DNA from: Octopus sinensis | Lineage: Eukaryota | Direction: 5' to 3' | Assembly (NCBI RefSeq): GCF_006345805.1 | Contig: NC_043017.1 | Location: 6,448,001 to 6,512,000 of the forward strand | Length of the DNA stretch: 64,000 bases | Shown here: positions 10,473-43,039 of the stretch, in pieces | Layout: every line of letters begins with the position of its first letter | Position numbering within the stretch: the first letter of the stretch is position 1 | Program-made: the position numbers and the translations under genes | Notes under the pieces: generated by a model | The model's database searches: none | The model's input: only the letters and a program-made list of their open reading frames with translations | What the model was told of the DNA's origin: nothing

Positions 10473-10506
<34 letters not shown>

Positions 10507-10826
10507 TATATTATATTAAATTAGAGATAAAACCACTATTAGACAAATCAAACAGTGAAAAACATAAGACAATACATAAAATTAATTTAAAAATATAAAC
10601 GTTGAAAATTTAAAAGTTGTAAAAATTATTTAAACTTATAAATCTAAATATATATATACAAATATATATATATGTATGTATATTTTTATATTTATATATT
10701 ATTTTGTTTATTTATTTATTTATATTTATTTATATTTTATTTATTTATATTTTTTCTTTATTTTTTTAAAAATTTTATATATAAATATCAAAAGTATTAA
10801 AGGTTTAATAAAAGATAAAGAGTAAA

Positions 10827-10921
10827 ACACTACGATCGTTTCATGGCTGTACCAATTCGAATAACAATAATTTAAATTCAATTAATAATTCGAGTTATGG
10901 TTACAGTCAATCTTCAGGTTA
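10827..10921 (-). ncRNA. Type I hammerhead ribozyme motif in pLTR
   Basis: CUGAAGA-long stem II-GAAA-C GAUC G-UA; palindromic stem III; stem I weak. Confidence 0.6.
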
Positions 10922-12350
10922 ATTGAAATATTTTTAAAATAATCAGAAATATTTAAACAATATTTTTAGGATATAAATAATATAATAATTTTACTTATAA
11001 TAAACTCTCTTATCAAAGTAGAACCTTAAAACTTAATAATAATGATTATATCTAAATCGATTATAATGTTAATTATTAATTTAATTTTTAAGATAAGAAA
11101 CCCACCGTAAATCTAACTTCAGTAATAGTCTATATCTAATTACATAAATATTTTTTTTAAATGACTATTATATATAAAAATTTATCAATGGATATATATA
11201 ATATATATATATGAATATTATTATTAAGATTTAAAATAATCTCTATAAATAAATATATATGCACATATAATAAAGACCTAATAAATTAATATTTCATATT
11301 TAAAAATAAAATATCTAAACTGAAATGTACAAACGAACAATCTTAAACGAACTTTCGGAAATCTTATTTAAAATACTTATACAAATAATCAATTCGTAGT
11401 TATATAGTATCGAATAAATACTATAAATACTATAAATATATTTATCAATGGAAAATATCAATTTAAAGAGACAATAACTAAGTTATGCTATTAAGTTAGA
11501 CATGGCCTGGACCAATATTTGGTCGAAACATATCTAAGTTTATCAAAGTTTATCTAATTTTAATTATAAGAAATTTAAAACTACAATTAATACTATTAAT
11601 ACATGTATATACATAAATCTAAGTTTAGACAACTCGTACTCTTGCTATTTAATATCTAATAATTATATAGAAATTTACGATAATTAGATCATTACATAAA
11701 CAACAATATTTACATAAGAAAAATATTATTACACCAAAGACTTATAGATATTAAAATTTACAATTTAAAGATGTTAAATATAAATAGATACTTACCTTAG
11801 CGAGGTTTTGTAATGAACTAAAATTTTGAATCGGAAAACGTCTTTACAGCGTTTATAAGAATACTCGGGGAATTACGTTATTAGCAAAAAAGAATAAATT
11901 GTTGAAGAATTCATTAAGCGTGAGGAACAAATACGCTTTATCAATGAAGATTGTAAATGGGAATAGTAATGGTTTAAAAAGAGTAAAAGAATGAAGTCAC
12001 AGATAAAGAATAAAATCACTCTATAATATAAGATTTATTAATAAATATGATAAATAATAGTTAATAGAAAATATATTAAATAATTTAAATGATAAAAACC
12101 CCTAATTATTAAATATACTCTAAGAATCTTATATGATTAATAAATATATAAAAAATTTCATTATAGTAACCCCTCAACGTACTATAAAGTCTTTCCCATA
12201 CACTTAAAATAAGCTATAATTAGTGATCATAACCAAAATCTCTAAAATACTTATCAAAATTTGCGGTATAACTATACATACGTATACATATATATATAAA
12301 TATACATACATACACATATACATATATTTATATATACATACATATATATA

Positions 12351-12399
<49 letters not shown>

Positions 12400-12488
12400 T
12401 ACACATATATACACAGAAATACACACATACACATACATACATGTACATACATACAATACTCAATAAATACACATACACTTATATACAC

Positions 12489-12519
<31 letters not shown>

Positions 12520-12754
12520 AATAAATGTATATATATATATACTTATATATACACGTACATCAACCTATACACATATATACATACACAAACACATATATCA
12601 TATAAATAAATACGTATATAAATTTCTATATTCATACTTTAATACAAAAATAGAGGTAAACATTAAGTTTAATCTAAATATTTAATCTTACTAATCTAGA
12701 ATACTATTACATAAATCAACAAATAAGGAGCTAATTAAAGCTAAGAAATATTCA

Positions 12755-15214
12755 TTATTTATCAAGAAATTTATTATATAAGTAAAGTAACTTGTGTCTG
12801 CATTTTATTTTGCGCTCATCCCAGGTAATCACTAAATTATCATGCTTATAAAATAAAATTTCCTTAAACTCATTTGAACATAAATAACAAAAATTCCCTC
12901 CTATACTATATGATGTAGCCTTACTAATTATTTCCCATGATAAAACGTAATTAATATTTTGGGATTTAATCTCCAAATGTATTTACTAAGTCCAGTGGAG
13001 TTAATGAAGTTTTTATTTTTAAATGAATGCATATGCTGTGCGATCCTTAATATTATTTTAGAGGAAGTGGACCCTATATATATATCGCGTTTGAATTATA
13101 ATTATTCTGATTATTCTCATTATGTAATGTAACTATACATTTCTACACTACATCGTTAATATCACATTTACTATTTAAGTTGCATATAGTTTTATCTCGA
13201 CATGTACAATTAATGAGTGTCTTATCTTTTTTATTATTGGTATTATTATATAATTTATTTTTATAAAGATTATTCAGTTTAAATTTGTTAAAAGAAGAAA
13301 TAATGTTACCTACACTATTAGTGGTGGAATAACCCACTCCAAAATTATTACTAGAGAAAATGTTTTTATATTTACGATTATCTCGAATAAATAGTTCAAT
13401 AATACCTAAAATCTCTTTAATAATGTTCGTTTTAACTTGAGCACCATAACGAACTATTAACCAAATTTTATTCTTATTTTTCATCTTATTATTATTTAAA
13501 TTATCATTATTATTGTTACCATTATTATTATTATATTTCTTTATCATATTATTATTATTATTATTAGATTTAAATTTATAATTATAATTAACATTTAAAG
13601 AATTATTAAAGTTTTTATTTTTATTTTTATTCTTGTTTTTATTTATATTATTTTTATTTTTATAATTTTTAAAGTTTACTACCAATATTACTAACAAAAT
13701 TATTATAAATATTATTAATATTTTTATCTCTATTATTAATAGTTTTATCTTTTTTTTAATAAAAAAATTAATATTACTATTATAACCTGCCTCTCTAAGG
13801 GCCTCGTTGTAATAAGGAGCATGCTTATTAAAAATCTCTAAATCATAAGAAAGTAATGATATACGTTTACTTATATTATTAATCAACGATATTTTAATTG
13901 ATGCTGGGTGATTACTATTAATAATTATATATCTAAGGTTCTCATTAAGTTTATGATATGGTTGTGTTTTACCCGTAATTAGATTAAAATTAACATCTAA
14001 ATAATTAACATTAAAATTCTCATTATATATAGTAATACTTAAAACATATCTTTTAAAGAAACTATAAAGTTTTTTCTTATATACTTCTATGTTCCTATTA
14101 GTGCAGTACTTAGTAATAAGTAGAAGGTTATCCCTATATAAACCACCCTCTATTTTTAAATTTTCTAATTGGAGTTCAGATAAATGATAAATACCTACTA
14201 AATCCGTAGCTTGTGCAGAATCAGGTGCTCCCATAGGTATATCAAAAAGTCCCTAGTGTCTTTCCTAGCCCATAATTTATTTTTGTACTTTATAAACGAT
14301 TTCCTAGCCATTTTAATTACATTAACCTCTTCAAAAGTCATTCCCACTTAATTCATTGCAAAAATAAGGGCCTTATTAAACACAATTTCATTAATAGAAG
14401 AATAATAATTATCTATATCTATTTGAATAAATTTATATCGATTTTTATCTTTAATATTATTAAACCAATTTAAAGTATTATTATTACTAAACCATAAATT
14501 TAAGTATTTAAGTTTATTTAATTTACTTATATATTTATCTAAAATAAGTTTACTCAATTTACCAAGGTCAGATTTACATGGACAAATTAATCTAGCTTTA
14601 GGGTCTGAATAAAAATTATCTTTATGGTCTTTCAGAGTAATTCTAGGGTGCATAGGTAAATAAGGTTCAGTTTTATTATCCAACTCATAGTTTATCATTA
14701 CTAATTTAGAGGCCTTATTAGTATTATAAAGTATACTATCTAGAACAATTTTATATTTTTTAATTATTTCTTTCTCTAAAAGGTTATCATATAATTTAAC
14801 ATCAAATTTATAGAGATTCCTAGTTTTATCTGATTCTTCAATAAAACCATCCATATTTCTCATTTCTTTAATTCTAATTGCTAAATTTCTTAAATATTCA
14901 TTATTTCTGTTTGGGTATTAATGAAATTTAATGTTTTTCACCGCCTTCCAAATATTATCTTCTAGTATTTGTAATTCTTTATTAAATGGGGGTTCATTTT
15001 TGGCTTTAAAATTAGAAGTAAAATTATCATTCATACAATCATTAAAATTAGATATATTATAGTTATAATAGTAGGCTTTCCATTTAATTCTAGAAACAAA
15101 ATCCTTAATATTATTAATAAGTTTCAAAATATATTCTTTCCTAGAAGGTATTGGAATATCCTTCAAAGATGAATTCCAAAATAGCGGTTCTATCTCACCT
15201 GTAATAACACTCAA
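12755..15214 (-). pseudogene. Penelope RT plus GIY-YIG endonuclease ORF, broken by stops and frameshifts
   Basis: Motifs IQIDIDNYYSSI, MGAPDSA, GLYRDN (YRDD expected), NYLDV, Cys linker CTCRDKTICNLNSKC, YIGSTS, CYLC and KCRH. Confidence 0.9.
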
Positions 15215-15651
15215 TTTACGTAATTTATCAATATATTAATTAATAATAATAATATTAGGGAATAAATCCAAACTTACAGGAAAAATTAGATTTAGGATTA
15301 AATCCAATTTAATAGTATAAATATATTATATTATATTATATTAAATAAGAGATAAAACCACTATTAGGCAAATCAAACAGTGAAAAACATAAGCCAATCC
15401 ATAAAATTAATTTTAAAATATAAAAGTTAAAAATTTAAAAATTATTACAATAATTTAAACTTATAAATTTAAATATATATATACAAATATATATATATAT
15501 ATGTATATTTTTATATTTATATATTATTTTGTTTCTTAATTAATTAATTAATTTATTTTTTATTTATTTATTTATTCATTTATTTTATTTTTTAAAATTT
15601 TATATATAAATATCAAAAGTATTAAAAGTTTAATAAAAGATAAAGAGTAAA

Positions 15652-15746
15652 ACACTACGATCGTTTCATGGCTGTACCAATTCGAATAACAATAATTGAT
15701 ATTCAATTAATAATTTGAGTTATGGTTACAGCCAATCTTCAGGTTA
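15652..15746 (-). ncRNA. Type I hammerhead ribozyme motif in second pLTR
   Basis: CUGAAGA, stem II UGGCUGUA/UACAGCCA, GAAAC GAUC GUA. Confidence 0.65.
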
Positions 15747-16779
15747 ATTGAAATATTTTAAAAATAATCAGAAATATTTAAACAATATTTTAAAGATATA
15801 AATAATATAATAATTTTACTCATAATAAACTCTATTATCAAAATAGAAACTTAAAACTTAATAATTATGATTATATCAAAATCGATTATAATGTTAAATA
15901 TTAATTTAATTTTTAAGATAAGAAAACCACCGAAAATCTAATGTCAATAATAGTCTATACCTAATAACATAAATATTTTTTTAAAAAAATGACTATTATA
16001 TATAAAAAATTATCAATGGATATATATAAATGTATATAATTATTATAATTGAGATTTAAAATAATCTCTATAAATAAATATATATGCACATATAATAAAG
16101 ACCTAATAAATTAATATTTCATATTTAAAGATGAAATATCTAAATTCAAAAAGACAACCAAACAAACTTAAACGAACTTTGGGAAATCTTATTTAAAATA
16201 CTTATACAAATAATCAATTCGTAGTTATATAGTATCGAATAAATACTAACAATACTATAAATATATTTATCAATGGCAAATATCAATTTAAAAAGACAAT
16301 AACTAAGGTAAGCTATTAAGTTAGACATAGCCTGGACCAATCTTTGGTCGAAGCATATCTATGCTTATCTAAGTTTATCTAATTTTAATTATAAGAAATT
16401 TAAAACTACAATTAATACTATTAATACATGTATGTACATAAATCTAACTTTAGACAACTCGTAATCTTGCTATCAAACAACATATCTATCGCTAAGTAAT
16501 ATCTTACGAACAAACTTAAATTTAATATCTAATAATTATATAGAAAATTACGATAATTAGGTCATTACTTAAACAACAATATTTACACAAGAAAAATATT
16601 ATTACACCAAAGACTTATACATATTAAAATTTACAATTTAAAGATGTTAAATATAAATAGATACTTATCTTAGCGAGGTTTTGTAATGAACTAAAATTTT
16701 GAATCGGAAAACGTCTTTACAGCGTTTATAAGAATACTCGTGGAGTATGTGTGTGTGGTGTTGTGTGTGCGTGAATGTG

Positions 16780-20800: not shown

Positions 20801-21009
20801 GTTGTAAAAATGCTGTTTGTAATTGTTGTCCTTTTCGGTTTATGTTGGATGCCTATCACTATAGCTCAACTGATCCTCATACACAATGCTGAATACTTTC
20901 GTAATTCCTTATCCGTACATATCTTATATTGCTTTTCCTGCATTGGTTAGCTCTTGCCCACACATGTGTGAACCCCATCATCTATGGATTCATGAATGAT
21001 AAATTCAGA
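20801..21009 (+). CDS. GPCR-A coding exon 2 (TM6-TM7), with a 1-nt deletion near 20933-20936
   Basis: ttttcag|VVKMLFVIVVLFGLCWMP, then in another frame LHWLALAHTCVNPIIYGFMNDKFR|gtaag; 209 bp versus 210 bp in the paralog. Confidence 0.9.
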
Positions 21010-21552: not shown

Positions 21553-23097
21553 TGGTTCGGTCCGGACCTCCAAATGGAGAAGAACTGGAACGAGATAACG
21601 AGTAGGGTGGTCACTCTCGCCCAGCAATGGGCCGAGAGGAAACTGTCCCTAAAAGGTGGGCGGAGGTGGTGAACGCGTACATCGCGTCCATCATCTACTA
21701 CCGCCTGACCGTCACCTTGTCCCGACCCTACCATCACCAAACTAGAACGCATCCTCTTCCGCTTCTTGTGGAAAGGATGCGTCCCGATGGTCAGGCGATC
21801 CATTTGCTGTCAACACCCGTTAAAAGGAGGGCTGGGCATGCCGTGGTTGATGATGCGCAGACACGCGCTGAGACTGCGACATCTCCGGCTCTATGTAGAC
21901 GACGGTGAACAGGTGTGGTCGCCGTTTGTGAGGCACGCATTCCCGCAACACGTCTCCATGACCGAACTACATTCGTGGATCAAAAGAGGCCGACGAAGGG
22001 CGAATGGCACCGCGAGTGTCGCGTTGCTCTCAAGCAACTCTGCCGTCCCGGGTCGACCTTGAGTGACTTCAACATAACCAAAGCATTCTATAGGGGATTA
22101 GTGGAGGGTAGGTACGGCGACGAGCTCGAGGCAAACCTGGGCGTCGACGAGGAATACCTGACCCGCCTGTTTCAAACGACTTTCGGCCCGGGACCTATGG
22201 ACAACTTCCAGAGATCCCTGGCCTGGCAGTGCTACCGAGAAGCGCTACCCGTTCGGGATAAGCTCTATAGGCATGGCTCGAGAAACACGGGGCCGACCTG
22301 CCCGAGATGCGGGCAGAGCGACGAAACCGCTCTGCACGCAATCGTGCAGTGTCCAGCAATTTCCCACCTGTGGGCTTATGTCGAACGACTGCTGTCACGT
22401 GTGGGACGTGTCGGTTTATCAGCCGAGTCTATCGTTAATATCGTCACGCCTCCTCCTTCAAACGGGAGGAAGAGCTATTTTTATCATACTTGTGGCTATG
22501 GCGAAAGAATGTATCTGTGGACGCGCCTGAAAGGATTAGAGACAAACACTTTCCTCTCTGGTCAATCTCTCATCAACTTCTTCAAGTATCACTTGAAGAG
22601 GAAAGTGAGAGTAGAGAGGCAAGTTTTGTCTAGTGAATGTTTTAAAAAAGATGGGTTAATGTAGCAAGGATGGCACGTATGAATGACGAAGCCACCTTCT
22701 ATGATTCTATGAACCGTAAAAATTAATACAGAGAGTTGCTTATTTGCAAAAAAAAAAAAGAAAGAAAAAGAAAGAAATATAACATGTGACTTCATTGACC
22801 GAGGTTACCGTGGTCTTTTCCGTAGGCTTTTCTTTCCACGGGTAAACCTGTCCTCCCCTTTACACTCCATATTGACATTTCTGTGATAACGATCCCTATT
22901 GATCAATTTTTTTTCCTCTCCCCCTTTTTTTACCCCCCCTTTTTTTGTCCTCTTTCTCTCCTTTCACGATCCCTTTTTATCGACCCCCCTTTTTTTTATT
23001 TTTATTTTTATTTTTTATTTTTTTTACCTTCAAAAGAAAAGCTCTACCTTGTAATTTGTTCTATCTGTGTGCAGCCCTGTGTGGCTAATAAAGAAAC
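21553..23097 (+). mobile_element. 5'-truncated Tx1/L1-group LINE (ORF2 C-terminus with zf-RVT, plus 3' UTR)
   Basis: PLKGGLGMP; ALPVRDKL...CPRCGQSDETALHAIVQCP zinc finger; pyrimidine-rich UTR ending AATAAAGAAA; embedded in (ATCT)n. Confidence 0.85.
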
Positions 23098-24850: not shown

Positions 24851-25020
24851 AATATATATATAAATATATATAAGAGTGTATTTTTCCGTTTTAACAATTA
24901 ACACGGAAAAAATAAGATAGATAGTTACTAGATGTTTATGGTTTCCAAAGCGTTCAGTAAATCACAATACAAATCCATCATTTTCTGTTAAAATGTCTTA
25001 TTGACGAGTTTCATTTCTTC

Positions 25021-25107
25021 ATTTCCCTGAAGAAAAGATTACAATACATTATACTATTTATTCTTTTGAATAATATCAGTGAAATCTTGGAAACATGTGT
25101 CCGAAGT
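25021..25107 (+). ncRNA. Type I HHR motif in a Penelope-type end (related to 38808-38893)
   Basis: AUUUCC CUGAAGA AAAGAUU...AAUCUUG GAAA CAUGUG UC CGAAGU; first stem I pair mismatched. Confidence 0.55.
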
Positions 25108-25186
25108 AAAGGTATTTGAATTATACCTGCGTTAAATTCCATTCAATATATATATATGGATATATATATATATATATATATATATA

Positions 25187-25234
<48 letters not shown>

Positions 25235-25500
25235 TAGCAATTAAGGACAACTACTTTAAGGAAAACTTAACAAGAAATTGTCAGGTAGATAGCGTAAAAA
25301 CCTCATAAGAGAAAAAATTTCGAAAATAATTATTTCTTATTGAACATATTAATTTATATATAGAGGGCATTATATATACATGCCAGAAGGCATTATATAT
25401 ACACATGCCAAACGCTAAGAGGGACAATTAGTCATTTCTACCAAAAATATTACTAATCCCACCGAATGCAATTTTTCAAAGTAAAACATTTAAAAAATAT

Positions 25501-25548
25501 AGACCTGTATCACAGTGATTTCATACTTACGTAATCATCAGCAGGCCT
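25501..25548 (-). ncRNA. Type I hammerhead ribozyme, inverted copy
   Basis: Exact reverse complement of 25881-25928. Confidence 0.8.
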
Positions 25549-25880
25549 GAATGTATTATAAATAAACAACGACCCTGCCCTGCTTAAGCCGATCATCTAA
25601 CTGCTCGACATCAACGAAGCACATGGGTGAGTTTACATATATTACAATCCGGATAAATGGCAAACTTTTACGAATTGCATTTCGGGAGAGGAAAAGTTTT
25701 TTCGGAATAAAAATTTAGCATTAAGGACACTACTTAATAAGAAAACTTAACAAGAAATTGTCAGGTAGATAGCGTAAAAACCTCATAAGAGAAAAAATTT
25801 CGAAAATAATTATTTCTTATTGAACATATTAATTTATATATAGAGGGCAATTTATAATATTGTTTATTTATAATACATTC

Positions 25881-25928
25881 AGGCCTGCTGATGATTACGT
25901 AAGTATGAAATCACTGTGATACAGGTCT
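25881..25928 (+). ncRNA. Type I hammerhead ribozyme
   Basis: AGGCCUG CUGAUGA UUAC GUAA GUAU GAAA UCACUGUGA UA CAGGUCU; 7-bp stem I; predicted cleavage after 25921. Confidence 0.8.
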
Positions 25929-26358
25929 ATATTTTTTAAATGTTTTACTTTGAAAAATTGCATTCGGTGGGATTAGTAATATTTTTGGTAGAAATGACTA
26001 ATTGTCCCTCTTAGCGTTTGGCATGTGTATATATAATGCCTTCTGGCATGTATATATAATGCCCTCTATATATAAATTAATATGTTCAATAAGAAATAAT
26101 TATTTTCGAAATTTTTTCTCTTATGAGGTTTTTACGCTATCTACCTGACAATTTCTTGTTAAGTTTTCCTTATTAAGTAGTTGTCCTTAATTGCTAAATT
26201 TTTATTCCGAAAAACTTTTCCTCTCCCGAAATGCAATTCGTAAAAGTTTGCCATTTATCCGGATGTAATATATGTAAACTCACCCATGTGCGTCTTATGT
26301 CGAGCAGTTAGCTGATCGGCTTAAGCGGGGCAGGTCGTTGTTTATTCATAATACATTC

Positions 26359-26406
26359 AGGCCTGCTGATGATTACGTAAGTATGAAATCACTGTGATAC
26401 AGGTCT
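26359..26406 (+). ncRNA. Type I hammerhead ribozyme, second tandem copy
   Basis: Identical to 25881-25928; predicted cleavage after 26399. Confidence 0.8.
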
Positions 26407-26556
26407 ATATTTTTAAATGTTTTACTTTGAAAAAATGCATTCGGTGGGATTAGTATATTTTTTGGTAGAAATGACTAATTGTCCCTCTTAGCGTTTGGCA
26501 TGTGTATATATAATGCCTTCTGGCATGTATATATAATGCCCTCTATATATAAATAG

Positions 26557-35701: not shown

Positions 35702-35779
35702 CTATGACGTATATGTTGTTGATGCTGATCTTACGGACGATAAGAGTCGTAATTTCTTGAAGAGATTTTTTAAATCATC
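35702..35779 (-). CDS. GPCR-B coding exon 3 (DDLKNLFKKLRLLSSVRSASTTYTS*)
   Basis: ttctacttgcag|GATGATTTAAAA, phase 0, homologous to 27839-27934. Confidence 0.8.
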   Translation of the reverse strand, partial: DDLKNLFKKLRLLSSVRSASTTYTS

Positions 35780-36047
35780 CTGCAAGTAGAATTAAACATA
35801 CAGATCAACACAGATACGCATACATGGATGTTTATAAATATATATATATATATACACACACACACATGGATGCATACATATATATTTAAACATACATACA
35901 TGCATACATACGTAGATATACACACATATACATACACACATGCACACATACATGCATACATACACACATACATATATACATACGTACGTACAAAATAAAG
36001 TATGAAATATACACGGAGAGAAAACCACCATGTGGATTTTTTACATG

Positions 36048-36200
36048 CTTAGAGATAAAACCACTATTAGGCAAATCAAACAGTGAAAATCATAAGCCAA
36101 TACATAGAAAAAAATTAATTAAAAAATATAAAATATAAAATTCCAAATTAAAATTTTTAAAATTATTTAAATAATTTAAACTTATAAATTTTAAATATAT
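36048..36200 (-). mobile_element. Solo terminal fragment of the Penelope pLTR family at 10521
   Basis: TTAGAGATAAAACCACTATTAGGCAAATCAAACAGTGAAAA matches the pLTR end. Confidence 0.8.
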
Positions 36201-36677
36201 ATATATATTTTTTATTATTATTATTTATTATTTTATTTTATTTTATTTTATTTTTTTATTATAATTATTTTTTTATTTTATTTTTTATTATCATTATTTT
36301 ATTATTATTTTACTTTACTTTATTATTATTATTTATGATTTTATTTTATTTTTTAATTATTTTTATTATTTTATTTTATTTCATTTTTTTAATTATTATT
36401 ATTTTTATTATTATTTTATTATTTTATTTTTTATTATTATTTTATTATTTTATTTATTTTATTTTTTATTATTATTTACTTTATTATTTTATTTTTTTAT
36501 TTATTATTATTTTAATATTTTATTTTATTTTATTTTATTTTATTATTATTATTATTTTATTACTTTATTTTTTTAAATTATTTTTATTATTATTATTTTT
36601 TTATTTTATTTTATTTTATTTTATTATTATTATTATATTATTATTTCATTTTATTTTATACATATATATATATATAA

Positions 36678-37066
36678 AACTAATGTAGGATAAAATTCTT
36701 TTCGAAAAAAAAAAATTATCAATGGCCAGTATATCAAAAAATACCTTTAAAGTTAAATTTATAAACAACTTACAAAATAAGGCCAAAAAATTCTAATACC
36801 AAATATGGCGCAAAAAAGACAAAATTGTCAATAACCATTATAATTTATAATTTAATGGTTATTGACAATGTTGTCTTTTTATCGGCATATTTGGCATTAG
36901 AATCTTTTTTTTTGACCTTATTTTGTAAGTTTTATATATATATATATATATATATACAAAATAAGGGCAAAATTATTTATAAATTTCACCTTTAAAGGTA
37001 TTTTTGATATGCTGGCGATTAATAAAATTTTTTCTCGAAAAAATTTTTTTTTATCCTACATTAGTT
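36678..37066. repeat. ~390-bp imperfect palindrome (foldback element)
   Basis: Ends AACTAATGTAGGATAAAA / TTTTATCCTACATTAGTT; centre near 36845. Confidence 0.85.
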
Positions 37067-37551
37067 ATATATATAATATATATATATATATATATGCTCA
37101 CATATTCATAAATGGGATGGGGAGATAACTTCGTTTCTTTCTAAATTATTTGAATGGACACATTAAATATTCTTCTTTAATTATGTAGCTCTAATCTTCC
37201 TGTACATCTAATATTTTCCCTCTGTGAGATTTGAATAAGGTTTACCTCTTTTCAGACAATGGCGTACCAAATAGACAAGACTAACAATTTTTGATGCTTA
37301 TAACTCTTTGCTTCCAGTCATGATCGTTTGATGTCAATTTTACTCAATGGGCGAGGTCCCGAAACTTAGAGCATAGGTTTCACATATGCTGAACGAAAGA
37401 GACAAACTTCAGTGCTTCTCTATCGCCACCACCTTTCATGCTCGGCTCCAAGCTACTCGTGGACACAACAGAAGCTTCGTTACTCCTATCCCACGGGCAA
37501 TGAATAATAGAGTTTTTACATCAAAATGTGTGTATATATATATATATATAT

Positions 37552-37598
<47 letters not shown>

Positions 37599-37712
37599 TA
37601 CATGTATATATAATATAATACAATATAATATATATATATATAGATAGATATATAGATTGACTGACAGAAACATAATATATATATATATATATATATATAT
37701 ACATGCATTGTA

Positions 37713-37761
<49 letters not shown>

Positions 37762-37904
37762 TGAGTGTATTTTACCTTGTTAACAATTAACACGGAAAAA
37801 TAAATAAATAGTTACCAGGGCAGCAAAAATCTCACAAGTAAAGATGTTGTAACTCCTTGTTTATAAAGGTTGAAATTCGTGTTTACGTTGAATATTTTGA
37901 ATAA

Positions 37905-38935
37905 TATGAATAAAAAATGGAGTTAACGCAGGTGTTAACAAGTATTTTTACTTTCTACATATGTTCGAAAATCCACTGATACTATTCAAAGATAAAAGGT
38001 ATAAACAATGCAATCTTCTCTTCGGGAAAGTGAAAAAACGAAACTCGTCAATACGACATTTTAGCAAAAAATGATGGATTCGTATAGCGATAGACAGAAC
38101 GCTATTAAATATTAATACATTTACTAATACTAACATTAATTTAGCTAATACCATCCAACCCTCTAGAATATTAATAACAAGGTTATTGTATCTGAAGTCA
38201 ATTCCAATAGAATTAAATTTATGTCAAGTAACTCTAAGATTAGAAATTCTATATACCAGTGTGTAATCAGTACTCGTAATAAAGTACGATTTTACATTGG
38301 AAGCACATCGTTAGAGTTATCTAAAAGAATTTCTATCCATTACTCAACATTTAGGGATAGAAATAAACGGAATAGTACCGGTCTCAGCAAACTGATTTGG
38401 GATTTAAAAGACCACAATGAACAATTTCATTTAGAATGGTTGATCCTCTCAATTTCGATACCTTATGACAAAGGCAAGAAATTCTGTCTTCTCTGCAATT
38501 CTGAGTTATTTTTCATTATTTTTCTAAAAATACTCTAGTAAACACGGTTATAGAACGAGCATACAGATGTAAGCATTGGCAGAAACATACTTTTAGTGCA
38601 TATAAGTAGTCTCTATCATTATATATAGTTTAAACTTTAATTCCTTTATATTTAACATTCACTATTAATATCCCTACTCTTTCTGTTAGCTACTTATGAC
38701 GTTATATCATATAACGTTTTTTAAACAATATTAATAGCGTTCTGTCTATCACTATACGAATACATCATTTTTTGTTAAAATGTCGTATTGACGAGTTTCG
38801 TTTTTTCACTTTCCCGAAGAGAAGATTGCATTGTTTATACCTTTTATTCTTTTGAATAGTATCAGTGGAATTTTCGAAACATATGTAGAAAGTAAAACTA
38901 CTTGTTTAAACCTGCGTTAACTCCATTTTTTATTC
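37905..38935 (+). mobile_element. 5'-truncated Penelope element: GIY-YIG fragment with inverted terminal arm
   Basis: 38221-38610: SIYQC...FYIGSTS..SKRISIHYSTF...STGLSKLIW...CLLCNSE; 37905-38110 is inverted relative to ~38730-38935. Confidence 0.85.
38808..38893 (+). ncRNA. Type I HHR, core variant CCGAAGA
   Basis: ACUUUC CCGAAGA GAAGAUU...AAUUUUC GAAA C AUAU G UA GAAAGU; 6-bp stem I; the inverted copy at 37950-38031 lacks one A of GAAA. Confidence 0.75.
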
Positions 38936-39041
38936 ATGGCCGCGTGCATACGTGCATATGTATTATGTAGGGACGTTCGTATATGTAAGTATATCGTTTG
39001 TTCTGCATATATATATATCTGTATTTATGTACTCTTGATAT

Positions 39042-39099
39042 ATTCAACCGATGACGGTAAAGCTTATTTAAGCAAAACCAGAAATCCTGGATCTTGAAT
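39042..39099 (+). ncRNA. Type I HHR, core variant CCGAUGA
   Basis: AUUCAA CCGAUGA CGGU...ACCA GAAA UCCUGGA UC UUGAAU; 6-bp stem I. Confidence 0.7.
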
Positions 39100-39243
39100 T
39101 ATTCAATAATTTTGCTTGTATACTTTGTCCCTCTGTCTTATCTCATGGTGCGATACGAACACTTAACGTGGTTTTCATAGTCAGAGTTTCGACTGCTATT
39201 TCGGCAGTTGGTGTCTCTTAGACACCCTCATTTTTAATTATTA

Positions 39244-39294
<51 letters not shown>

Positions 39295-39679
39295 TAATAA
39301 GGTAGTCACTTCAAAAACTCTCTATAGAATATATAAACATATATATATACATACATACATGCATATATATATACATACATATGCACATACATATATATAT
39401 ATATATACATGCATAATTAAAATCACAATAAGGGTGAAAAAAATTGAATATTAATTAACAACATCAATTTAAAACACTAAGTGGCCTAGCGTAAAAAACT
39501 GTGATTCAGTAAAAATTATTAATACAAGTAATAAGAGAGGGACCACATGTGGTCACTCTAACGCTAGAAATAGATCCGCAAAGGGAATCCAGCACTAAAA
39601 AATTGTTCTCAAGCATTAATTCAACACGCCAAGAATGTAAGCGGGCAGGACAAATGAAAAATAACGAAAAAATGGATTA

Positions 39680-39753
39680 ACTCTATACAATTGTTTCATC
39701 GTTAATAGATTGTGTATTTTACTTACAAATCATTTTCGAATCATCGGTAGAGT
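39680..39753 (-). ncRNA. Type I HHR, core variant CCGAUGA
   Basis: ACUCUA CCGAUGA UUCG...CGAU GAAA C AAUU G UA UAGAGU; 6-bp stem I; inverted copy at 41530-41604 (+). Confidence 0.75.
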
Positions 39754-40205
39754 ATATCAAAAATATAATTTGCTGAACCGAACGCCAAAATCCATACGAA
39801 GCCGAGCAAGGGCGATCGGCACAGCCGATTATACTTGCAGTTACGTTCAAATATCCACATTCTTGGCGCGTTGAAAATACCGGATGTAATGTAAATACTA
39901 CCCCAGTAATTTACTGCCGGTTTGAGAACATATTAATTTATAATTAAAATCATAATAAGGGTGGAAAAAATTGAATATTAATTAATAACATCAATTTAAA
40001 ACACCAAGCGGCCTAGCGTTAAAAAACTGTGATACAGTAAAAATTATTAATACAAGTAATAAGAGAGGGACCACATGTGGTCACTCTAACGCTAGAAATA
40101 GATCCGCAAAGGGAATCCACCACTAAAGAATTGTTCTCAAGCATTAATTCAACACGCCAAGAATGTAAGCGGGCAGGACAAATGAAAAGTAACGAAAAAA
40201 TGGAT

Positions 40206-40942
40206 GTTGTTAAATTGGCAATGAAATGTAGACGACTGGCCGGATGGATCCTCAGAACCTTTAGAACAAGAGAACAAGAAACCATGATGGTCCTCTGGAG
40301 GACACTTGTCCTAAGCCACTTTGACTACTGCTCTCAGTTATGGTCACCATCCAGTGTCAAGTTGATCACAGAGCTCGAGGCGATCCAACGTAGCTACACG
40401 AAGAAGATAGCCTCTATGCAGAATGTAAGCTACTGGGAGAGACTCAAGAGATTAAAACTATATTCCCTGGAGCGTAGGCGGGAAAGATATGCCATAATAT
40501 ACATCTGGAAGATCCTGGAGGGACGTGTCCTAAACTTTGGCATCGAGAGTTACGCAAATGCCAGAACTGGGCGCCACTGCGTGGTGCCTAGGACTCCAAA
40601 CTTGCCATCAAGATGTAGGACAAGATTCTGTGATAGCCTGGGCTTCCGAGGCCCACAGCTCTTCAATATCCTCCCGAAGAACCTGAGAGACCTGCATGGG
40701 GTGGATGCAGATGTCTTTAAAATGAAACTGGATCTCTTCCTGTCAGGTGTCCCAGATGAACCAACTTCACGTCAGGAGGTGCAGATGAGGGCAGCTGCAT
40801 CGAACTCTCTCATGCACCAAATGGCAGTTGCTAAAAAGCTTTCGTGAAGTAAAACCAAGTAGCAACACCAAATGGCGGTGCCCCAGCATGGCCACAGCTC
40901 ATAAGCTGAAACTAGAATCAATCAATCAATCAATCAATCAAT
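40206..40942 (+). mobile_element. 5'-truncated CR1-group LINE with (CAAT)n tail
   Basis: GWILRTFRTR..LWRTLVLSHFDYCSQLWSP..YWERLKRLKLYSLERRRER; frame open to TGA at 40847; short 3' UTR plus tetranucleotide tail. Confidence 0.9.
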
Positions 40943-42081
40943 TGTTTCATCGTTAATATATTGTGTAATTTTACTTACAAATCATTTTCGAATCATCGGT
41001 AGAGTATATCAAAAATATAATTTGCTGAACCGAACGCCAAAATCCATACGAAGCCGAGCAAAGGCGATCGGCACAGCCGATTATACTTGCAGTTACGTTC
41101 AAATATCCTCATTCTTGGCGCGTTGAAAATACCGGATGTAAATACTACCCCAGTAATTTACTGCCGGTTTGAGAACATATTAATTTATAATTAAAATCAT
41201 AAGGGTGGAAAAAATTGAATATTAATTAATAACATCAATTTAAAACACCAAGTGGCCTAGCGTAAAAAAACTGTGATACAGTAAAAATTATTAATACAAC
41301 TAATAAGAGAGGGACCACATGTGGTCACTCTAACGCTAGAAATTGATCCGCAAAGGGAATCCACCACTAAAGAATTGTTCTCAAGCATTAATTCAACACG
41401 CCAAGAATTCAACGCGCCAAAAATGAGGATATTTGAACGTAACTGCAAGTATAATCGGCTGTGCCATTCGCCTTTGCTCGGCTTCGTATGGATTTTGGCG
41501 TTCGGTTCAGCAAATTATATTTTTGCTATACTCTACCGATGATTCGAAAATGATTTGTAAGTAAAATTACACAATCTATTAACGATGAAACAATTGTATA
41601 GAATTAATCCATTTTTTCGTTATTTTTCATTTGTCCTGCCCGCTTACATTCTTGGCGTGTTGAATTAATGCTTGAGAACAATTCTTTAGTGGTGGATTCC
41701 CTTTGCGGATCTATTTCTAGCGTTAGAGTGACCACATGTGGTCCCTCTTTTATTACTTGTATATATACATGCATATATGCATAAACACATACGTGCATAC
41801 ATACGTGTACATACATATATACATTTATGCATAATTACATACTTACATACAAGCATACATACATATGTGTGTGTGTCTATGTATGTATGTATGGTCACTC
41901 TTAGAAAGCCTTTGATGATGTCTCCTCAATTGTGGCTGTGGTAGGGGTAAACAACTACTGTATGAAAATACAATTTCTTAATATGAATAGATGGTTACGG
42001 AAGGAATTTTTTTAGCCTTATATCTACTGGACCAGGCGGCTTACCTGAGGATAAAACAAGAAAAGAACAAGATTCGCTTAC

Positions 42082-42291
42082 TCTGAAATTATCATTCATG
42101 AAGCCATAGATGATAGGGTTCACAAAAGAGTGGGCCATGGCTAACCAGTGTAGGGAAATATATATAGATATTAATTTGGAACCGGGCTTCAAAGCTAGTT
42201 CATAATGGTACTCGAGGAACAAGATTAATATACTTAAAGGCATCCAACATACACCGAACATGACTACAATGGTCAGTAGCATTTTTACAAC
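42082..42291 (-). CDS. GPCR-B coding exon 2 (TM6-TM7)
   Basis: ttttcag|VVKMLLTIVVMFGVCWMP...HWLAMAHSFVNPIIYGFMNDNFR|gtaag, 210 bp. Confidence 0.92.
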
Positions 42292-42517: not shown

Positions 42518-42553
<36 letters not shown>

Positions 42554-43039
42554 AAGTAAATAAGTGGAGTTGAACGCAGATGTTATTTAAATTCTTTTAC
42601 TTCCGACATATGTTTCGAAGACAACATTGGTTTTATTCCAAAGGAATAAACGGTGTAAAATGCAATCTTCTCATCAAGAATGAAAGAGAACCTATCTCAA
42701 CAACAAGACATTATAATAATTTTGATGACTGCATAAATGATAAACAGAACGCTATTAAGTATTTTTTTAAAAACCGTTAGTAGATTCGACGTCAAATGTA
42801 AGCACTGGCAGAAAATACCTTTAGCTCATATAAGTGATTTTATTCATTCAGCCCAGTAGCTACTGGTGATATGGATAGATGTATTATTCACTGTTCCTTA
42901 TATATCGATATTGGAGGGAACAAATCTCGTTTAAGCATTGGGCTTGCTGCGAGTTAACATCGCTGACAAGGCCTAAAAAGGCTGAAATGTATCTGACGCG
43001 CCAGCTAGCCGCTGTCAGGAAAGAATTTCTAGTATATAC

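What the first reader, a model, noticed from the sequence alone, without database searches (positions are those of the whole stretch)
39414..41760. Second, different retrozyme-like array (~527-nt unit, CCGAUGA core) in intron 2 of GPCR-B, same geometry
Seen: about 2.4 tandem units plus an inverted arm, no ORF of its own. The HHR has a 6-bp stem I, palindromic ACAAUUGU stem III and GUA site, but core CCGAUGA. Along GPCR-B transcription (minus strand) the order is antisense arm first, then tandem sense HHRs, as in GPCR-A intron 2. The unit differs from the 478-nt unit apart from a short TAGCGTAAAAA motif, so the two insertions are independent.
Basis: partly seen in the sequence, partly recalled or inferred. 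Interest (0 to 1): 0.8.

Follow-up and report, generated by a model that had tools for sequence, protein, structure and literature searches.

The report
Penelope-driven hammerhead retrozyme in octopus intron
A short non-coding jumping repeat with a predicted self-cutting RNA motif, one of about a hundred copies scattered through this octopus genome and likely inserted by Penelope retrotransposon proteins; its odd core letter is an already described variant, so it is a mostly ordinary member of a known class.

Summary
The 527-nt tandem units, the inverted arm, the type I hammerhead (HHR) with CCGAUGA core and the position in GPCR-B intron 2 are all real.

The unit belongs to a dispersed family (about 100 insertions examined) with Penelope-like element (PLE) footprints: (TA)n targets, a target duplication, partial tandems and head-to-head arms. 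It also has two fixed 3' ends 108 nt apart, one of each kind in 48 of 62 head-to-head insertions and never two alike. 'Antisense arm first' follows from that geometry.

The family core is mostly canonical CUGA(G/A)GA. CCGA marks a younger subfamily and was inherited, not decayed in place. It is the known U4C variant, reported active but slower in a viroid. Two neighbouring PLE-type families also spread CCGA, and one of them UUGA as well.

Verdict: a new animal retrozyme (non-autonomous PLE) family. Cleavage, circular RNA and the partner PLE are not shown.

The parts
39400..39415 (+). Left copy of target-site duplication (16-nt string, overlaps the element end by 2-3 nt; TSD about 11-16 bp)
   Evidence: Same string at 41760-41775
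39414..39940 (-). Complete 527-nt unit (3'-most of the tandem arm); ends at fixed end E2 (unit position about 527)
39414..39521 (-). 108-nt PLE-type 'tail' between fixed ends E1 (unit 419, window 39522) and E2
   Evidence: 48 of 62 head-to-head insertions have one E1 and one E2 end, none has two alike
39680..39753 (-). Only intact sense type I hammerhead: CCGAUGA core (U4C), U10.1-U11.1 mismatch, extended stem II, palindromic stem III, GUA site
   Evidence: stem II pair T-A in 84 and C-G in 16 insertion groups
39941..40205 (-). 3' part of the middle unit (unit positions 264-527)
40206..40938 (+). 5'-truncated LINE 3' fragment with (AATC)n tail, inserted in stem III of the middle hammerhead with a 10-nt target deletion
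   Evidence: related C-terminal frames at other loci (L105, L117)
40939..41187 (-). 5' part of the middle unit (positions 1-253) with broken hammerhead at 40939-41005 (core CCGAUGA, cut site lost)
41188..41408 (-). 5'-truncated first unit (positions 305-527), no hammerhead
41408..41762 (+). Inverted arm (unit positions 66-419) ending at fixed end E1; carries a CCGAUGA hammerhead at 41530-41604 with one stem I mismatch
41760..41775 (+). Right copy of target-site duplication
35780..42081 (-). Host intron 2 of GPCR-B (rhodopsin-family neuropeptide-receptor-like gene)
   Evidence: Exon 2 ends at 42082 (NFR|GTAAG), exon 3 starts at 35779

Best explanation
This is one insertion of a dispersed, non-coding 527-nt hammerhead repeat family that was likely copied into a (TA)n tract by the reverse transcriptase and GIY-YIG nuclease of a Penelope-like element, that is, an animal (non-LTR) retrozyme. 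SHOWN: the dispersed family, (TA)n targets, target duplication, partial tandems, head-to-head arms, two fixed 3' ends 108 nt apart used once each per insertion, a strongly folded unit, inheritance of CCGA in one subfamily, and later damage by a LINE. INFERRED: multimeric transcripts self-cleave through a dimeric hammerhead (the 8-bp palindrome pairs between two motifs) and may circularise. The PLE protein nicks both target strands, primes one at each start site, and the two 5'-truncated cDNAs are joined head to head; arms longer than one unit would come from a circular or multimeric template. The CCGA core likely still cuts, but more slowly (my odds about 60%). This copy is likely a dead end: one intact sense hammerhead cannot release a monomer, and the upstream antisense arm would pair with it or with the broken unit in the host pre-mRNA.
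For: Family: 102 matches from the 40 candidates scored of 1777; 93 HHR-bearing copies in 76 insertions. Ends: of 106 groups, 62 are head-to-head; 48 of these have E1+E2, 0 have E1+E1, 0 have E2+E2, and 14 have an end elsewhere. The 478-nt family shows the same rule in 22 of 24. A neighbouring RT+GIY-YIG family has the same type of HHR, inverted arms and a tail at one end. PLE papers describe this anatomy (PMC8557442 and PMC3846280 passages) and equate the tail with two RT start sites (PMC11167929). Structure: z -6.3; a compensatory stem II pair and many G-U-compatible changes; N7 takes all four bases. CCGA clade: 15 of 73 rows, nested in CUGAGGA copies with the two variable core columns masked, mean distance 3.2% against 4.3%; an older subfamily has CUGACGA. 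U4C is reported active in a viroid (second-hand).
Against: No autonomous partner with matching ends was found. No cleavage or circular RNA was shown. The tail (108 nt) and unit (527 nt) are longer than the 30-40 nt and 170-400 nt given in the papers read (though within the 51-972 bp range of the 2026 preprint). The CCGA clade has only 69% bootstrap support, the root is a midpoint root, and no one-clade test was run. The predicted fold of CCGA copies favours a competing hairpin over stem II (0.68 against 0.14; CUGA copies 0.13 against 0.33). In the 2026 preprint only 1 of 9 retrozyme dimers cut in vitro, and HHR cleavage was not needed for PLE insertion in vitro, so spread does not prove activity. 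End classes used broad bins (unit 405-432; 500-14) because alignments run on into (TA)n. Two scaffold loci (C12758, C13200) are probably the same insertion.
Confidence: 0.85

Rival explanations
1. Same element, but the CCGA hammerhead is effectively inactive and hitch-hikes, because cleavage is dispensable for PLE-driven insertion (relaxed selection). This is compatible with the best explanation except for the ribozyme step.
For: U4C creates a competing hairpin in this family. A neighbouring family has no canonical core among the first 100 listed: 47 CCGAUGA, 50 UUGAUGA, 3 others (hand count). HHR mutants did not affect insertion in vitro. U4C 'considerably decreases activity in vitro' (PMC3088659).
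Against: The changes that spread are confined to C/U transitions at core positions 3 and 4. In the autonomous family, position 4 reads C 54, U 45, A 1, G 0 among the first 100 of 730 (hand count). Other core changes in this family are scattered (5 of 79). The three G8A copies are no closer to each other than to CUGACGA copies, as expected for independent CpG decay.
Confidence: 0.35
2. The copies are truncated pLTR remnants of an autonomous Penelope element, not a self-propagating non-autonomous family.
For: Same HHR type and end rule as the coding family next door. One copy abuts a PLE ORF fragment head to head (L245/L258).
Against: Units join head to tail with no ORF between them. In the fetched loci screened with one PLE protein, hits lay apart from the repeat except in L245. 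That fragment's best genomic relatives are only 70-79% identical, so it is an older remnant. Flanks were only about 1.5 kb and only one PLE query was used.
Confidence: 0.07
3. The array was kept by the host to regulate GPCR-B pre-mRNA, as the parallel with GPCR-A might suggest.
For: Both paralogues have an HHR array in intron 2, with the longer arm in the sense orientation.
Against: Both families are dispersed (2582 genome matches to the shared 17-mer), and this intron alone holds three HHR element families. The arm order is forced by geometry. The middle HHR is destroyed. GPCR-B has a frameshift near TM1 in this assembly.
Confidence: 0.03
4. A DNA-level repeat (MITE, foldback element or minisatellite) with a chance hammerhead match.
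For: Long inverted arms and a target duplication; no Rfam hammerhead hit.
Against: The two outer ends are different sequences, not terminal inverted repeats. Inner ends are variably 5'-truncated. G-U-compatible and compensatory changes point to selection on one RNA strand.
Confidence: 0.02

Closest known systems
Animal (non-LTR) retrozymes (PMC7229834; bioRxiv 10.64898/2026.07.22.740005)
   Same: Non-coding tandem unit with a type I HHR and palindromic stem III, low GC, highly self-paired predicted monomer, co-occurrence with PLEs; already reported in a mollusc (mussel).
   Different: Longer unit than the 170-400 nt circles, an extended stem II with a U-U start, and a CCGA subfamily. Inverted arms and tail are not described there: 'inverted' and 'target site' have 0 hits in PMC7229834, and 'tail' has 0 hits in the preprint. 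Circular RNA is not shown here.
EN+ Penelope-like elements and their pLTR/tail insertions (PMC8557442, PMC3846280, PMC11167929, PMC4209133)
   Same: Partial tandem plus inverted 5'-truncated copy, tail at one end only, TSD, microsatellite or AT-rich targets, dimer-type HHR.
   Different: No RT or GIY-YIG ORF; tail of 108 nt against 30-40 nt; partner element not identified.
[quoted passage not shown]
   Same: The same core substitution.
   Different: Here it is in a type I, dimer-dependent genomic motif and is amplified in three repeat families; activity is untested. The original 1998 paper was not held, and the two citing papers differ on how much activity drops.

Membership tests
Animal non-LTR retrozyme | Non-coding tandem repeat unit, dispersed in the genome | tested here: met
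Animal non-LTR retrozyme | Type I hammerhead in each unit | tested here: met
   Met for the family (93 HHR-bearing copies; tandem intact pairs e.g. C9:59.35 Mb). Found by motif and covariation; Rfam models did not score it.
Animal non-LTR retrozyme | Two consecutive intact HHR units in this copy (the preprint's 'active' criterion) | tested here: not met
   Middle HHR broken by the LINE; this copy is a damaged member of the family
Animal non-LTR retrozyme | Highly self-paired monomer | tested here: met
   z -6.3, 0 of 60 shuffles; G-U-compatible and compensatory changes
Animal non-LTR retrozyme | Self-cleavage and accumulation as circular RNA | not testable with these tools
   Only contigs of runs guessed to be RNA were available
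Non-autonomous Penelope-like element | Partial tandem with inverted 5'-truncated arm | tested here: met
   62 of 106 groups head-to-head
Non-autonomous Penelope-like element | Tail at one end only (two RT start sites) | tested here: met
   48 E1+E2, 0 alike, 14 other; length 108 nt, longer than published
Non-autonomous Penelope-like element | TSD and AT-rich or microsatellite target | tested here: met
   16-nt duplicated string here; (TA)n flanks at most ends
Non-autonomous Penelope-like element | Sequence match to the pLTR of an autonomous partner | tested here: inconclusive
   No match among the window's PLEs or the fetched loci; no genome-wide PLE survey was run
Autonomous PLE | RT plus GIY-YIG ORF | tested here: not met
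   No ORF in the unit
Canonical hammerhead core | C3-U4-G5-A6-N7-G8-A9 / G12-A13-A14, A15.1-U16.1, H17 | tested here: inconclusive
   All met except U4C here and the U10.1-U11.1 mismatch, both described natural variants; activity untested

The most novel reading that the evidence does not exclude
Each insertion is made by one Penelope RT-nuclease dimer on a circular (or multimeric) retrozyme RNA, the two subunits priming opposite target strands at two different fixed sites and displacing each other's cDNA. This would explain why the two ends are never alike and why the arms overlap (the E2 arm runs past the E1 site in 44 of 48 insertions). In addition, weakened hammerhead cores (CCGA in three families, UUGA in one) would spread repeatedly in this genome because slower cutting preserves the template.
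Probability: 0.3. Interest if true: 0.65.

Novelty: new member of a known kind. Interest (0 to 1): 0.38.

Why it matters
The locus itself is a damaged transposon copy and matters little. The family is useful in two ways. First, it supplies insertion-footprint evidence (tail, inverted arm, TSD, TA target) that animal retrozymes are moved by Penelope machinery; the 2026 preprint argues this from co-occurrence and trees. Second, the strict one-of-each end rule with overlapping arms constrains how PLE inverted insertions form, which PMC8557442 names as an open question. Natural CUGA, CCGA and UUGA subfamilies side by side also give a ready test of whether the hammerhead matters for spread.

Tried and rejected
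- Rfam scan: no hammerhead family among the 150 of 167 rows shown for the window, and none at E<=10 for the span.
- Expression: no RNA holder listed. Contigs from four runs guessed to be RNA cover 23, 18, 17 and 16 of 30 bins, mostly at 86-99% identity. They cannot show strand, ends or circles, so I draw no conclusion.
- Partner search through the shared 17-mer: the first 30 loci were 28 of the 478-nt family and 2 of this family, with no linked ORF.
- The apparent chimera with a PLE ORF (L245/L258) was rejected as an old remnant.
- The idea that both ends sit at the base of one tail hairpin: pairing probability about 0.6 in the window copy, not reproduced in the whole-unit fold of another copy or in the two other families, so dropped.
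- ADAR-editing signature: private A>G 5.3 against T>C 5.1 per thousand, so none.
- A catalytically dead G8A lineage: not supported.
- Extra conservation of the HHR in the C27 zinc-finger cluster: 0.51% against 1.8-2.9% in most flanks, but the adjacent non-HHR part is also 0.51% and the copies were picked by an exact pattern, so inconclusive.
- A 107-bp A/B homology at 37173-37277 is not exon 3.
- Global alignment of the two units was uninformative.
- Earlier-findings look-ups returned nothing.
- Literature searches listed no paper on octopus retrozymes or on CCGA in PLE hammerheads. Subscription papers are mostly missing, including a 2017 RNA Biology paper on PLE hammerhead dimers that I recall but did not read. 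No supplements were read, and they could hold such variants.

Full report
Observation. The span holds a head-to-head repeat insertion. On the minus strand it reads: inverted arm (41762-41408, unit positions 419 to 66 backwards), partial unit 305-527, a middle unit, and a complete unit (39940-39414). The units are 95-97% identical. A 16-nt string is duplicated at the two ends (39400 and 41760), within (TA)-rich DNA. The hammerhead at 39753-39680 is as described. The host intron is confirmed: database proteins align to exon 2 ending at 42082 and exon 3 starting at 35779. One of them is labelled Octopus sinensis and is 100% identical over the aligned 55% of the query.

Bases 40206-40938 are a 5'-truncated LINE end with an (AATC)n tail on the plus strand (Atlas lead). 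It replaces 10 nt of the middle hammerhead, including the cut site and the 3' strand of stem I. Only one intact sense hammerhead is left, so a host transcript cannot release a monomer.

The family. A genome search scored 40 of 1777 candidates and gave 102 matches. Pattern searches added more. Among 106 groups, 62 are head-to-head, 40 lie on one strand (some are locus-edge pieces) and 4 are complex. Of the 62, 48 have one end near unit position 419 (E1) and the other near 527 (E2). None has two alike, and 14 have an end elsewhere (an independent end test gave 27 of 27 two-ended cases among 50 groups). Either arm can be the longer one (E2 longer in 28 of 48). In 44 of 48 the E2 arm runs past the E1 site, so the arms copy overlapping template. 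The 478-nt family follows the same rule in 22 of 24 head-to-head loci, and a third family (483 nt, with a copy at window 38938-39240) has two ends 97 nt apart. This is the PLE footprint: partial tandem, inverted truncated copy and a tail at one end (passages of PMC8557442 and PMC3846280). PMC11167929 (parts 1-2 of 4) maps the tail to two RT start sites, finds both target strands cut and extended, predicts a dimer, and finds HHR cleavage unnecessary for insertion in vitro.

RNA structure. The circular monomer folds far better than shuffles (z -6.3). Across 107 groups, stem I is paired in 600 of 612 cells. The first stem II pair is T-A in 84 and C-G in 16, probably a single event. Long stems show many G-U-compatible changes, and N7 takes all four bases (most copies were found with patterns fixing part of the core, which biases core invariance). 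The palindrome ACAAUUGU can form an 8-bp duplex between two motifs, the dimer mode described in PMC4209133 (parts 1-2 of 4). The U10.1-U11.1 mismatch is also described (PMC3088659 section 8).

The CCGA core. With the seven core letters left free, 143 matches were found and 100 listed. Of the 79 outside the C27 cluster, 58 are CUGANGA, 16 CCGANGA and 5 other (hand count). Exact CUGAUGA is only 2 of 79; CUGAGGA dominates. The equal raw counts (69 against 69) mislead, because 53 CCGA matches come from one insertion multiplied with a C2H2 zinc-finger gene cluster. A tree of 73 of 76 insertions (3 dropped for short cover or low identity; core positions 4 and 7 masked; midpoint root) puts 15 CCGA rows in one clade (69% support). 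That clade is nested in CUGAGGA copies and has the lowest internal distance, 3.2% against 4.3%. An older subfamily has CUGACGA. So CCGA is most likely derived, and it was carried by the template RNA rather than arising at this locus.

CCGA is known. One citing paper says it did not affect viroid self-cleavage (PMC9608096 passage). Another says it considerably lowers activity in vitro but suffices in vivo (PMC3088659 passage). It recurs in viroid-like RNAs (bioRxiv 10.64898/2026.09.16.752053 passages). The original paper was not held. In this family it is predicted to favour a competing hairpin.

Neighbours. The RT+GIY-YIG family at 37906-38937 has a similar hammerhead, with CCGA in 54, CUGA in 45 and CAGA in 1 of the first 100 of 730 matches (hand count). 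The 483-nt family has CCGAUGA in 47 and UUGAUGA in 50 of the first 100 of 175 (hand count). Non-canonical cores have therefore amplified in three families here. That fits tolerated, weaker cutting, but it also fits relaxed selection; spread alone cannot decide.

Relation to the 478-nt unit. There is no overall homology (local score 38, shuffles 38.7), so the two insertions are independent. They share a 17-mer that lies at an insertion end in both families, a hint of a shared mobilising protein. The partner PLE was not found.

Comparison and verdict. It works like a PLE insertion and fits the animal retrozyme class as a family (PMC7229834 passages and section 14; preprint 10.64898/2026.07.22.740005 parts 1-3 of 5). 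This copy fails the two-intact-hammerhead criterion. Cleavage and circles are untested. It is a new member of a known kind. The modest added value is the strict end rule with a long tail and the repeated spread of weak-core variants; the seven searches listed under Tried and rejected showed neither for retrozymes, but the library lacks most subscription papers and no supplements were read. Interest 0.38.

Noticed in passing
G000:C27:12.50-13.01 Mb (L047-L060, L091-L098, L286-L324): One truncated CCGAUGA insertion of this family was multiplied to 53 copies with a tandem C2H2 zinc-finger gene cluster. It lies in sense orientation about 1.1 kb upstream of the zinc-finger frame in the stretches read. 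39 of 53 keep core and stems intact; the apparent extra conservation is confounded by ascertainment.
   Followed up: partly
window 37760-38937: 5'-truncated autonomous-type Penelope copy (GIY-YIG fragment at 38167-38538, inverted arms, tail at one end) with a CCGAAGA hammerhead at 38814; young family, top copies 97-98% identical.
   Followed up: partly
window 38938-39240: Truncated copy of a third non-coding hammerhead family (483-nt unit, ends 97 nt apart) whose two main subfamilies are both non-canonical, CCGAUGA and UUGAUGA.
   Followed up: partly
window about 45290 (-) and about 20900-20923 (+): GPCR-B has a frameshift near TM1 and an early stop in exon 3 relative to a 405-aa relative; GPCR-A has a frameshift in exon 2. 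These are pseudogene lesions or assembly indels.
   Followed up: partly
window 25226-26554: The 478-nt family is much larger (2582 matches to the shared 17-mer, mostly this family in the first 30 loci) and forms head-to-head arrays of dozens of units, e.g. G000:C11:55.27-55.29 Mb.
   Followed up: partly
window 10495-16744 (-): Penelope-like RT fragments with an Asn-rich stretch between 1.4-kb direct repeats (90% identical); my motif scan found no hammerhead there. The family label is recalled; Pfam gave no hit.
   Followed up: no
window 24949-25143 and 42551-42800: Older pLTR-like relatives (72-81% identical) of the element at 37906-38937, with degenerate hammerheads.
   Followed up: no
window 21909-22664 (+): Another LINE 3' fragment with a zf-RVT domain in GPCR-A intron 2.
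   Followed up: no
unit positions 60-135 and 300-380 across the family: Inner truncation points of the arms look clustered near the two strands of the long 66-84:303-321 stem; not tested statistically.
   Followed up: no
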